In this document: positions 6,669 through 47,300 of the stretch, one piece after another
Layout: every line of letters starts with the position of its first letter
Position numbering within the stretch: position 1 is the stretch's first letter
Origin: Octopus sinensis
Lineage: Eukaryota
NCBI RefSeq assembly: GCF_006345805.1
Contig: NC_043008.1
Span: 22,754,001-22,818,000, forward strand
Direction of reading: 5' to 3'
DNA length: 64,000 nt
Notes under the pieces: generated by a model
Told to the model about the DNA's origin: nothing
What the model saw: only the letters and a program-made list of their open reading frames with translations
Database searches by the model: none
Position numbers and translations under genes: made by a program

Positions 6669-6890
6669 GTAGGGAGAATTTACGAAAAAACAAAAGTCGA
6701 AGACAGGTGGTGTACAAAGCAAACAGATGTATTAGTATAACGCTCAGGAATAGAAAAAGTCTTTTACGTTTCGAGCCTATGCTCTTCTACAGAAAGGGAC
6801 ACAGAAAAAACAAGGAGAGAAAAAAAATGTGTGTAGTGGCTAACAATCTATCATGGTGTGTGACCCTCGGACATAAGGGTCACACACCAT
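6669..6890 (-). mobile_element. Penelope-like pLTR fragment with variant hammerhead-like motif and terminal 15-bp foldback
   Basis: Same family as 13240-13408. It ends in (TA)n, has a hammerhead-like motif at 6796-6760, and has a perfect 15-bp inverted repeat at 6853-6867/6876-6890. Confidence 0.55.
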
Positions 6891-7045
6891 ATATTAGCCA
6901 ACCGAATATGGCTAGGGACAGGGCAGGGTGGTGGGGGTGTTACTGTTGCATTTAGCCCCAGGCGAACATCAACGTCACCAGATAGGCCTGACGCCATCAC
7001 GGCGTCCTTTATCTTGCAAAGGGAGATCACCCACCAAGAAGCCGA

Positions 7046-7099
7046 TACCACACACGGACCTAGGTTTCAAGGTGTGTTGCCTATTATCAACGTGTGGTA
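7046..7099 (-). ncRNA. Hammerhead motif, inverted copy of 7454-7507
   Basis: Reverse-complement copy in the inverted arm (ttatcaa at 7084-7090). Confidence 0.7.
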
Positions 7100-7453
7100 G
7101 GCATCGCTTCTCGATGAACGACCAACTTTGCAAGATACATATAAGGATTTTCAAGTAAATACATTTACTGATTTCGAAAATCCGTTCGACAGCAATAATA
7201 ATTCTCTAAATGAGATATAGACAGTGACTGCTCCGCCTGGGGCTAAATGCAACAGTGACACCCCCACCACCCTGCCCTGTCCTAGCCATATTCGGTTGGC
7301 TAATATCCCTTATATTACGGAGCAGTCACTGTCTATATCTCATTTAGAGAATTATTATTGCTGTCGAACGGATTTTCGAAATCAGTAAATGTATTTACTT
7401 GAAAATCCTTATATGTATCTTGCAAAGTTGGTCGTTCATCGAGAAGCGATGCC

Positions 7454-7507
7454 TACCACACGTTGATAATAGGCAACACACCTTGAAACCTAGGTCCGTG
7501 TGTGGTA
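7454..7507 (+). ncRNA. Type I hammerhead ribozyme motif, U3:A8 core variant
   Basis: cacacg UUGAUAA u-agg-caacaca-ccu-u GAAA ccuagg UC^ cgugug. Stems I and II pair, stem III is palindromic (ACCUAGGU), and the GUC site predicts a cut after 7496. Confidence 0.75.
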
Positions 7508-7796
7508 TCGGCTTCTTGGTGGGTGATCTCCCTTTGCAAGATAAAGAACGCCGTGATGGCGTCAGGCCTATCTGGTGACGTTGATGTTCGCCTGGGGCTA
7601 AATGCAAGTGACACCCCCACCACCCTGCCCTGTCCCTAGCCATATTCGGTTGGCTAATATCCCTTATATTACGGAGCAGTCACTGTCTATATCTCACTTA
7701 GAGAATTATTATTGCTATATATATATACATCTATATATATACATTTGTGCAGATGTATACATATATACATACACACACACACACATACATATATTA

Positions 7797-39638: not shown

Positions 39639-39797
39639 TCCAATTTCTCGCAAATTTAAATATTCACTGCGTCCAATTTGTCACAAATTTAAATATTCAC
39701 TGCGTCCAATTTGTCACAAATTTAAATATTCACTGCGTCCAATTTCTCGCAAATTTAAATATTCACTGTGTCCAATTTGTCACAAATTTAAATATTT
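39639..39797. repeat. 33-bp minisatellite, ~4.8 copies
   Basis: Unit tccaattt(g/c)tc(a/g)caaatttaaatattcactgcg. Confidence 0.9.
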
Positions 39798-41213: not shown

Positions 41214-43060
41214 GTCTTTGGATGTACTTTTAGTACCAAATCACACTTAAATCACTTTTCCCTCCACTTTTTTTTATTCTCTTACCGAAAATGCTCTTCT
41301 CATGGTTTTAAAGTGCAAAAAATGTTAGCCAAAATAGGTCTAGAGTGGGATGATGAGGGAAGGGGGTGTAAAAAAAAAAAACGAATTTCCAAAACAAAGA
41401 TGCCCCCCAACCCCATCATTTCGGAAGCTGTGGTTTAAAAAAAATGGAGAAAATCCTCAAAAAAACTTTCCCTACAAATTTTTTTATAATCATAATCTAT
41501 GTCGCTTGAAAGGGATTTATATAAATTTTCATTAAAAGATACCCGTCTTCCTGAAAGTTAGGGAAAAAAAGTCAGATCATGTGAATTTTCTGAAACTTCT
41601 CTCTCCACCCCCTTGCAAATATTCTTTCCCATAAATCTCTATATACTCCGAAGCAACAACATCTAAGTGGTACTGGTAGAAAATTTTGTTAAAAAGTATC
41701 CATTTTTCTGGATGTTATGAGACAACAAAGTCAGTGGTGTACATATCTGTAGTAATGCCCCTTTATTTATACGATTTTTAAAATAATTTCATGTTCATTT
41801 CATTCATTGTTTGCTGTAAAGGGTTGCTGTAAAGCTTACAGATGGGCTGCTGAATTGAAATCTCTATGTTGCTTTGAGGGGATGGTAAAACTTGACAAAG
41901 TGCTTTTCCCTCTGTTGTTGGACTACTGTGATGTTTGTTTAAAAAAAGAGAGATTATGACTGTGATAAAATAATGAAAGCAATATTTACTAAGCAAGCGA
42001 ACACTATTATGCAAAGAAATAATTAGATGTACAACATAAAAATTATTAGAAATTGGAATAAAATGTGAAAATATTATCAAGGGGCTAGCAGAAAGACAAT
42101 ATCTAGAATTACATGAAGTAATTTGTTCTAAGAGATAAATGACACCACAAAAGCCAGCCCAGTGAGATTACTATGGCTGGAACTTTCTCAGGGTTAAATA
42201 GCAATGACAATACACTCCTCTTATCAGTGGAAGGCCATAAACAATTCTTTATCTTCTCTCCTCTTTTTATATCTTCAGTCACTGGACAAAAATAAAACAA
42301 ATAAATCAACTCCAGTAACATCTTTTTCTTTTCAAGCTCCCCACCCACCCACACACACACACACACACTACCACCACCATACTTAATTTCAATGGATCTC
42401 TTTTGCAGAACAACTGAGTAACAGGGACAAACAAATGAACACCCAGTTGCCAAGTGATGGAGGAAGAGGACAAAAACACACATACACACACACGAACACA
42501 CACACACACGAACACACACACACACAAAGGTAAAAGAGCCCTTGACTAGTCACAGACTCTTTTACTTGTTTCAGTCATTTGACTGCGGCCATGCTGGAGC
42601 ACCGCCTTTAGTTGAGCAACTCAACCCCGGGACTTATTCTTTTTGTAAGCCCAGTACTTATTCTATCGGTCTCTTTTTGCCGAACCGCTAAGTGACGGGG
42701 ACGTAAACACACCAGCATCGGTTGTCAAGCAATGCTAGGGGGACAAACACAGACACACAAACACATACATATATACATCATCATCATCATCGTCGTTTAA
42801 CGTCCGTTCTCCATGCTAGCATGGGTTGGACGGTTCGACCGGGGTTCTGGGAAGCCAGAAGGCTTCATCAGGCTCCAGTCTTATCTGGCAATGTTTCTAC
42901 AGCTGGATGCCCTTCCTAACGCCAACCACTCCGTGAGTGTAGTGGGTGCTTTTTACGTGCCACCTGCACAGGTGCCAGGCGGGGCTGGCAACGGCCACGG
43001 TCAGATTGGTGTATTTTATGTGCCACCGGCACGGAAGCCAGTCGAGGCGGTGCTGGCATC

Positions 43061-43510
43061 GGCCACGAGTCGGATAGTGCTTTTTACGTACCACCAGACC
43101 AGGGATCCTGGCTGCTTCAATTCGATTTCGATTTCGCTTGCCCCAACATGTCTTCACAAGCAAAGGGGGTTGGCATGGGTGCCTGTCGTACGGTCGCATT
43201 GGAGTATTTTACGTGCCACGGCCACGAGTCGGATAGTGCTTTTTACGTACCACCAGACCAGGGATCCTGGCTGGTTCAATTCGATTTCGATTTCGCTTGC
43301 CCCAACATGTCTTCACAAGCAAGGGGGTTGGCATGGGTGCCTGTCGTACGGTCGCATTGGAGTATTTTACGTGCCACGGCCACGAGTCGGATAGTGCTTT
43401 TTACGTACCACCAGGCCAGGGATCCTGGCTGGTTCAATTCGGTTTCGATTTCGATTTCGCTTGCCCCAACATGTCTTCGCAAGCATGGGGGGTTGGCATG
43501 GGTGTCTGTC
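43061..43510. repeat. ~159-bp tandem repeat (~3 copies) in the RTE 3' UTR
   Basis: ggccacgagtcggatagtgc occurs at 43061, 43220 and 43378. Confidence 0.9.
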
Positions 43511-43595
43511 GTCAGATGAGGTTCTATATCGACTTCGCTTGCCTCAACCGGTCTTTGTGTCCAAGGGAGGAAAGGCATTCATAAGTGGGCTGGGC

Positions 43596-46826: not shown

Positions 46827-47300
46827 CGAAGGAACAACAGGTTTTAAGTTAATACGTAGGGAATTTTCTGCAACAGAAATTACTGAACATCTAGGAACTT
46901 CGGGGTTCGAGAAGAACGTAATATAAATAAGAGAGAGAGAAAAAATTTCGTAGGGAATTTAGGGTATCTTTGGGGAAAGGAATAACGACGAAGGAACAAC
47001 AGGTTTTAAGTTAATACGTAGGGAATTTTCTGCAACAGAAATTACTGAACATCTAGGAACTTCGGGGTTCGAGAAGAACGTAATATAAATAAGAGAGAGA
47101 GAAAATATTTCGTAGGGAATTTAGGGTATCTTTGGGGAAAGGAATAACGACGAAGGAACAACAGGTTTTAAGTTAATACGTAGGGAATTTTCTGTGACAG
47201 AAATTACTGAACATCTAGAAACTTCGGGGTTCGATTAAAACATAATATAAATAGGAGAGAGAGAGAATATTGTAGTGAATTCTGGGGATGGAATAACAAC
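46827..47300. repeat. 162-bp tandem repeat (~3 copies) in the RTE 5' UTR
   Basis: cgaaggaacaacaggttttaag occurs at 46827, 46989 and 47151. Confidence 0.9.

What the first reader, a model, noticed from the sequence alone, without database searches (positions are those of the whole stretch)
6891..7715. 355-bp viroid-like unit with a U3:A8 compensated hammerhead core
Seen: the core is UUGAUAA (7463-7469) instead of CUGANGA, so the C3:G8 tertiary pair is swapped to U3:A8, while GAAA, the GUC site and stems I-III are intact. The motif is enclosed by further helices: gaagc/gcttc and a perfect 12-bp helix tatcttgcaaag (7416-7427) with ctttgcaagata (7532-7543). The rest of the unit is rich in hairpins (agtaaat/atttact inside ggattttc/gaaaatcc, tagcca/tggcta, acgcc/ggcgt, cagtgac/gtcactg). 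The copies are head-to-tail and circularly permuted. Known: the 3:8 pair tolerates compensatory swaps. Inference: the double change points to selection on activity, and the 1.35-unit permutation fits reverse transcription of a structured circular RNA.
Basis: partly seen in the sequence, partly recalled or inferred. Interest (0 to 1): 0.85.

Follow-up and report, generated by a model that had tools for sequence, protein, structure and literature searches.

The report
Penelope-driven retrozyme with shifting hammerhead core
This is one copy of a family of over a thousand short repeats, likely spread by Penelope-type retrotransposons, whose predicted self-cutting RNA motif carries a normally fixed base pair in four different states, including unpaired ones, which makes it a natural test of whether cutting is needed for such elements to move.

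Summary
The motif is real: a type I hammerhead with UUGAUAA at 7463-7469, GAAA and GUC, in a 355-bp unit. The layout was misread: 6891-7235 is an inverted copy; only 7236-7716 is tandem. The element belongs to a dispersed family with at least 1,143 motif matches in this genome. It has the Penelope (PLE) signature: two fixed 3' ends 45 nt apart, (TA)n targets, inverted 5'-truncated partners. It is best read as a non-autonomous, PLE-driven retrozyme, not a viroid-like replicon. U3:A8 is already published for PLE hammerheads. The ribozyme still looks selected, on other evidence: eight other core positions show no inherited change (P about 0.008) and stem III stays self-complementary through seven sequence variants, as a dimeric hammerhead needs. 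Cleavage, expression, circles and the cognate driver are not shown. This locus has one hammerhead per strand and is probably a dead-end copy. The interest lies in the four-state natural series.

The parts
6891..7235 (-). Inverted, 5'-truncated copy of the unit (unit positions 83-355 + 1-71); its outer end lies 11 nt short of the family's usual short 3' end
7057..7090 (-). Hammerhead core of the inverted copy (U3 at 7090, C17 at 7057), identical to the forward one
7236..7590 (+). One full 355-nt unit (start is this copy's truncation/inversion junction, not a natural end)
7591..7716 (+). Second partial unit ending at the family's long 3' end (unit position 127); the last 45 nt are the PLE-type tail; followed by a TA repeat
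7416..7543 (+). Long interrupted hairpin arm that extends stem I (12-bp closing helix 7416-7427/7532-7543); pairs covary across 172 copies
7457..7502 (+). Type I hammerhead: stem I 7457-7462/7497-7502, core UUGAUAA 7463-7469 (U3, A8), U·U mismatch 7470/7484, stem II 7471-7473/7481-7483, GAAA 7485-7488, predicted cut after C7496
   Evidence: cleavage not tested
7488..7495 (+). Self-complementary stem III/loop III (8-nt palindrome), predicted to pair between two copies in a double hammerhead
7717..7744 (.). TA-rich microsatellite abutting the long 3' end, the family's usual target
6853..6890 (.). 15-bp inverted repeat of flanking DNA (6853-6867/6876-6890) at the left junction, in place of the usual TA repeat; likely a repair filler
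   Evidence: read; flank

Best explanation
The element is one copy of a dispersed family of 355-bp hammerhead-bearing repeats with the insertion signature of Penelope-like elements, and is likely a non-autonomous retrozyme that a PLE reverse transcriptase/GIY-YIG protein would copy into TA repeats. Shown: two fixed 3' ends 45 nt apart, TA flanks, tandem plus inverted copies, no PLE-like ORF joined to the unit in the loci examined, an invariant catalytic core apart from positions 3, 7, 8, and a self-complementary stem III. Inferred: multi-unit transcripts fold as double hammerheads through the stem III palindrome and cut slowly; the monomer may be ligated to a circle; the PLE protein nicks a TA repeat and starts reverse transcription at either of two internal sites, reading through uncut or re-ligated cleavage sites, which gives more-than-unit copies; cDNAs from the two target ends join as an inversion. 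The 3:8 pair is under relaxed constraint (pyrimidine at 3, purine at 8): U3:A8 is a tolerated, probably slower state reached from C3:G8 through U3·G8, and lineages have moved back toward G8 and C3 several times. This particular locus has one hammerhead per strand and a read-through transcript is predicted to bury it in a 301-bp duplex, so it is likely a dead-end copy.
For: Ends: 104 of 111 3' ends in 72 insertions fall at unit 75-83 (50) or 123-128 (54); 95 of those 104 abut TA repeats; 41 of 72 insertions have both orientations, 31 with one short and one long end. This matches the PLE layout in PMC8557442 and the two RT start sites in PMC11167929. RT + GIY-YIG PLEs with open frames of 775-777 aa exist in this genome and show two ends, TA flanks and a similar U·U, palindromic hammerhead-like motif. 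Core constraint: G5, A6, A9, G12, A13, A14, A15.1, U16.1 show 0 inherited changes against a mean of 0.90 per column in 334 other columns (P 0.008); 4.96 expected on U3:A8 branches alone (P0 0.007). Stem III is self-complementary in 163 of 176 copies across seven recurrent sequences. Stem I and its extension covary. 3:8 census; stepwise paths.
Against: No cognate driver found: the one PLE family examined has no similarity to the unit. Cleavage is untested; in a pairwise mutant scan of another hammerhead only the G3:C8 swap rescued (PMC9901934), and 8 of 9 predicted Xenopus retrozyme dimers did not cut. No pile-up of 5' ends at the cut site: 17 matches without C17 against 598 with GUC, most of them point/indel variants or stem I microhomology junctions, so nothing in the DNA shows a cleaved template. 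Part of the unit outside the ribozyme (near the 3' ends) is as invariant as the core, so constraint is not unique to it. The root rests on a long outgroup branch, and an earlier, smaller sample could not order U·G and U:A (AU p 0.23). The 172 copies are a non-random sample of at least 1,143.
Confidence: 0.75

Rival explanations
1. Same PLE-driven element, but the hammerhead no longer needs to cut: the motif is kept as a fold or protein-binding site, and uncut multimeric transcripts are the template, so 3:8 drifts freely.
For: C3·A8 (25 matches) and U3·G8 (533) amplified; no excess of copies starting at the cut site; HHR mutants did not affect PLE insertion in vitro (PMC11167929); the C3/G8 single mutants were of low activity in PMC9901934.
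Against: Catalytic positions G12, A13, A14, G5, A6, A9 never change on inherited branches; stem III palindrome is rebuilt repeatedly; all 7 inherited 3/8 changes keep pyrimidine-3/purine-8 (chance about 0.05 from the 65% transition share). Power on U·G and C·A branches is low (1.56 and 0.38 expected), so this rival stays open for those lineages.
Confidence: 0.17
2. One reading: an endogenised viroid-like circular RNA in which the U3:A8 swap is a strictly compensated, selected double change.
For: 355-nt size, circular fold z -4.7, multimers of up to four same-strand hammerheads whose units differ by only 1.4% on average; metazoan retrozymes of this size do form circles (PMC7229834).
Against: Uncompensated states are common; one polarity only carries a hammerhead-type core; fixed PLE-type ends and TA targets; fold signal confined to one arm; tandem units are no closer to each other than to the nearest copy elsewhere (1.37% vs 1.02%).
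Confidence: 0.05
3. The unit is the detached pLTR of an autonomous PLE and the copies are merely its 5'-truncated insertions.
For: Same architecture as truncated PLEs; Xenopus retrozymes are sister to pLTRs.
Against: Upstream of a unit lies another unit or an inversion, up to 3-4 units, in the insertions mapped; PLE-like ORFs near copies were separated from them by TA repeats or unrelated DNA where read.
Confidence: 0.03

Closest known systems
Metazoan non-LTR retrozymes (Cervera and de la Pena 2020, PMC7229834; Li et al. 2026 preprint 10.64898/2026.07.22.740005)
   Same: 170-400-nt non-coding unit, type I hammerhead, tandem copies, stable predicted fold, proposed PLE dependence; mussel and axolotl units are about 350 nt.
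   Different: Here copies are dispersed 1-4-unit insertions with inverted partners and two fixed ends, and the core is mostly non-canonical; the 2026 pipeline used canonical and minimal type I models. Expression and circles are shown for those, not for this family.
PLE pLTR hammerheads, including the U3-A8 variant of Schistosoma mansoni Cercyon elements (PMC4209133)
   Same: U3-A8 core (about 1,300 hits there), short palindromic stem III, dimer requirement, pairs of motifs 100-700 bp apart on opposite strands.
   Different: No ORF between repeats; long extended stem I; U·U at 10.1/11.1; U·G and C·A states amplified in the same family, which the parts of that paper I read do not describe.
Penelope-like elements (layout: PMC8557442; mechanism: Anolis PAc, PMC11167929)
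   Same: Partial tandems, inverted 5'-truncated copy, optional tail, AT-rich/microsatellite targets.
   Different: Non-coding; tail 45 nt rather than 30-40; cognate protein not identified.
Natural hammerhead core variants (Perreault et al. 2011, PMC3088659; saltern U3..G8 variant as cited in PMC7151607)
   Same: U3-A8 covariation and U10.1-U11.1 mismatch both reported in nature; one U3/G8 variant with a 2-nt insertion.
   Different: Those are isolated motifs; here all four pyrimidine-3/purine-8 states occur as amplified subfamilies linked by single steps.
Avsunviroidae / viroid-like satellite RNAs (recalled)
   Same: Size, hammerhead, dimer-type stem III as in ASBVd.
   Different: Hammerhead in one polarity only; spreads as DNA insertions.

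Membership tests
Type I hammerhead ribozyme | Three stems around C3U4G5A6N7G8A9 / G12A13A14 / A15.1-U16.1 / H17 | tested here: met
   All present with U3:A8 in place of C3:G8 and U·U at 10.1/11.1, both reported natural variants; Rfam score below gathering
Type I hammerhead ribozyme | Obligate Watson-Crick 3:8 pair | tested here: inconclusive
   Met in this copy; not met in 533 U·G and 25 C·A matches of the family
Type I hammerhead ribozyme | Self-cleavage after H17 | not testable with these tools
   Needs in vitro assay
Non-LTR retrozyme | Non-coding 150-400-nt unit with type I hammerhead in tandem copies | tested here: met
   355-362-nt units, up to four same-strand hammerheads; this locus itself has only one per strand
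Non-LTR retrozyme | Expressed as linear and circular unit-length RNA | tested here: inconclusive
   Not shown either way; see Tried and rejected
PLE-mobilised element | Two 3' ends separated by a tail | tested here: met
   104 of 111 ends at two sites 45 nt apart
PLE-mobilised element | Partial tandems with inverted 5'-truncated copy; AT-rich/microsatellite target | tested here: met
   41 of 72 insertions inverted; 95 of 104 ends abut TA repeats
PLE-mobilised element | Shared 3' sequence with an autonomous PLE of the same genome | tested here: inconclusive
   One PLE family tested, no similarity; 150 of 17,197 candidates were scored
Autonomous PLE | RT + GIY-YIG ORF between pLTRs | tested here: not met
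   No PLE-like ORF within or joined to units in loci L001-L144
Viroid / viroid-like RNA | Ribozymes in both polarities, RNA-to-RNA replication | tested here: not met
   Relaxed core scan finds a hammerhead core on the plus strand only; other ribozyme classes only by Rfam; replication untested

The most novel reading that the evidence does not exclude
A young retrozyme family whose hammerhead stays catalytically selected while its core 3:8 tertiary pair walks through every pyrimidine-purine state (C:G to U·G to U:A, then back to C:G once through U·G and once through C·A), each state active enough, as a dimer or with PLE protein help, to found tens to hundreds of insertions. This would be a natural, tree-resolved crossing of a fitness valley in a ribozyme active site that mutagenesis says is nearly impassable.
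Probability: 0.35. Interest if true: 0.62.

Novelty: new variant of a known kind. Interest (0 to 1): 0.42.

Why it matters
Whether hammerhead cleavage is needed for PLEs and retrozymes to move is open: the motif is conserved, yet mutants insert normally in vitro (PMC11167929). This family supplies near-identical natural pairs that differ at the core (U:A loci L082/L083 against U·G locus L065, about 1% apart; C·A against C:G sister clades), each with a known copy-number outcome. Measuring their cleavage either shows that 'dead' core mutants are active in a dimeric, long-stem-I context, or that cutting is dispensable. It also means canonical CUGANGA descriptors miss about 95% of this clade (61 of 1,143 matches are C3:G8, only 23 of them with U4), so retrozyme counts are underestimates.

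Tried and rejected
RNA evidence: no RNA holder listed on record; laying three guessed-RNA contig sets and one run of unknown kind gave low-depth contigs over the unit and no informative joints; contigs cannot show strand, ends or circles, so this is not evidence either way. Driver search: PLE family found from a neighbouring ORF has no similarity to the unit (local score 26 vs shuffled 26.1); two same-strand hammerhead pairs 1.3-2.1 kb apart (L141, L142) were duplicated insertions, not pLTR-ORF-pLTR. Circle versus linear multimer: within-insertion divergence and cut-site truncation did not discriminate. First census (234 U:A, 82 U·G, 0 non-U3) fixed U4 and U7 and undercounted; replaced. First trees lacked divergent subfamilies and suggested U·G was only derived; replaced. 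In one search two hairpins were mis-indexed and the whole-window motif scan was faulty (it missed the known motif); both are disregarded; blastn found no other unit copy in the window. No earlier scan finding matched. Przybilski and Hammann 2007 and Lunse et al. 2017 were not held; I saw only their titles in reference lists. Supplements of the Cervera papers were not read and may list this family or U·G variants. I guessed a cephalopod host from recall of the repeat landscape and used 'octopus' as a paper-search term; no call establishes the host.

Full report
Observation. The sequence claims hold: UUGAUAA at 7463-7469, GAAA at 7485-7488, GUC at 7494-7496, a perfect 12-bp helix 7416-7427/7532-7543, and a 355-nt unit (7236-7590) followed by 126 nt of a second unit (7591-7716). 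The layout was misread: 6891-7235 is an inverted copy, giving 301-nt arms at 98% complementarity. The hammerhead is type I with a 6-bp stem I extended by a long interrupted arm, a 3-bp stem II closed by U·U, and a 2-bp stem III with a palindromic loop. Rfam finds nothing at gathering score and HH9 at 19 bits on both copies. The arm folds at z -7.3 (0 of 200 shuffles); the circular unit at z -4.7 (0 of 60), the remaining 227 nt at z -1.6, the minus strand at z -3.5, and 3 of 25 random stretches of the window did as well as the unit. A transcript of the whole locus is predicted to pair the forward core with the inverted copy.

The family. The window lies in a 2.7-Gb genome. A context pattern around the core matches 1,143 times: U3·G8 533; U3 with non-G8 516, of which the first 100 listed are all A8; non-U3 94, which I tallied by hand as C3C4:G8 37, C3A4:G8 1, C3U4:G8 23, C3·A8 25, other or chance 8. 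Matches are motifs, not insertions; many insertions hold two or more. A sister family with CUGAUGA, the same stem II and full-length homology to the unit (global score 112 vs shuffled -70 +/- 14) accounts for most of 116 matches; a more distant relative with CUGAGGA for most of 74.

Insertion signature. In 72 insertions (loci L001-L030 and L061-L110, 8 overlapping loci removed) 104 of 111 3' ends fall at two sites 45 nt apart, 95 of the 104 abut TA repeats, and 41 of 72 insertions carry an inverted partner, 31 with one short and one long end. 5' ends are scattered. This is the PLE layout described in PMC8557442 (passages), and the tail equals the distance between two internal RT start sites in the Anolis PLE (PMC11167929, parts 1-2 of 4). 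The genome holds PLEs with open frames of 775-777 aa, RT and GIY-YIG domains, two ends and TA flanks, but that family has no similarity to the unit. The driver is therefore inferred, not identified.

Is the ribozyme selected? I aligned 172 near-full copies (a non-random sample chosen to span subfamilies) with 4 sister-family rows and built a tree without columns 3 and 8. G5, A6, A9, G12, A13, A14, A15.1 and U16.1 show 0 inherited changes against 0.90 per column in 334 other columns (P 0.008), with 10 tip-only changes. On U3:A8 branches alone 4.96 were expected (P0 0.007); on U·G and C·A branches only 1.56 and 0.38, too few to judge. Stem III is self-complementary in 163 of 176 rows through seven recurrent sequences; 11 of the 13 exceptions are singletons; the intermolecular duplex is worth -8.9 to -11.4 kcal/mol for the five variants computed, whereas the monomer's active fold is 6.1 kcal/mol above its minimum. 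Stem I, its extension, the 12-bp helix (11 of 12 pairs at 85% or more, one at 52%) and the acgcc hairpin keep pairing with double-sided changes; on 9 representatives 21 of 81 pairs change on both sides (structure derived from those rows, so biased). Caveat: the stretch before the short 3' end is as invariant as the core.

The 3:8 pair. Position 8 has 5 inherited changes, reached by only 6 of 334 other columns, and position 3 has 2. All 7 are single transitions: U·G to U:A at the base (SH-aLRT 100), U:A to U·G three times (96, 43, 73), U·G to C:G once (96, with U4C), and U:A to C·A to C:G once (99, 99). The constraint looks like pyrimidine-3/purine-8. The basal order depends on a long outgroup branch; a smaller sample did not resolve it (AU p 0.23); recombination between subfamilies was not modelled.

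Circle or not. Multimers reach four same-strand hammerheads and units within an insertion differ by 1.4% against about 9% median to other loci, which fits either a circle or homogenised linear multimers. Only 17 matches lack C17 against 598 with GUC; 8 are point/indel variants, 2 deletions, 3 stem I fold-back junctions and 4 other junctions (my reading), so templates usually run through the cut site, uncut or re-ligated. Circles are shown for other metazoan retrozymes (PMC7229834, passages) and remain untested here.

Known versus new. U3-A8 was reported in nature by Perreault et al. (PMC3088659, passages), along with U10.1-U11.1, and about 1,300 times in S. mansoni PLE hammerheads (PMC4209133, parts 1-2 of 4). 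Retrozymes as non-autonomous PLE derivatives is the thesis of a 2026 preprint (parts 1-3 of 5). Dimer dependence of PLE hammerheads is reviewed in PMC6765202 (passages). A pairwise mutant scan found only the G:C swap rescued at 3:8 (PMC9901934, passages), and a cricket satellite hammerhead keeps C3 and G8 nearly invariant (PMC2837043, passages). One saltern U3/G8 variant is cited in PMC7151607 (passages). PMC3884650 (passages) and PMC2920678 (part 1) state that tolerance of core changes depends on context. I found no report of one family amplifying all four states in searches; that library lacks most subscription papers, two key papers were not held, and supplements were not read.

Verdict. 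A real hammerhead-bearing, probably PLE-driven retrozyme; the headline U3:A8 feature is known and the viroid framing is not supported. What is worth following is the family-wide, tree-resolved series of core states. Interest 0.42; new variant of a known kind.

Noticed in passing
L150, L175 and 31 loci among L145-L177, about 500 nt downstream of the ORF stop: A young RT + GIY-YIG PLE family (775-777-aa open frames) has a hammerhead-like motif with a C3-C4 core (U4C), U·U at 10.1/11.1, 4-bp stem II and a GUAC palindrome; two 3' ends about 30 nt apart and TA flanks.
   Followed up: partly
L235, L240, L246-L249, L254, L256: A subfamily reached C3:G8 together with U4C (37 matches), the same core variant as in the autonomous PLE.
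   Followed up: partly
L195, L199-L202, L236-L263, L274-L283: The U10.1·U11.1 mismatch alternates with G·U and the canonical G-C pair among subfamilies (117, 14 and 39 of 172 rows).
   Followed up: partly
window 6900-6970 and 7590-7650; read laying depth: The stretch before the short 3' end is nearly invariant in the clade, conserved in both sister families, and carries far more contig depth than the rest of the unit; a likely RT-binding site shared with further families.
   Followed up: no
L111-L144 and L031-L060: Two homologous retrozyme families with canonical cores (CUGAUGA, CUGAGGA) and the same two-end, TA-target layout.
   Followed up: partly
L123:3-1320 and L136:1-1260: Retrozyme copies inserted in TA repeats directly beside PLE copies of two different families (45% protein identity).
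   Followed up: partly
window 5000-5283/5647-5930; 5444-5700/7716-8349: Local duplications around the element (284 nt at 97%; shorter pieces at 87-98%).
   Followed up: no
window 43060-43512, 46827-47271, 39639-39796: Young tandem repeats of 158, 162 and 33 nt period (94-96% matches).
   Followed up: no
172-copy tree: Inherited substitutions lean to A>G (67) and T>C (55) over G>A (53) and C>T (35); depends on rooting, not tested for an RNA-editing origin.
   Followed up: no
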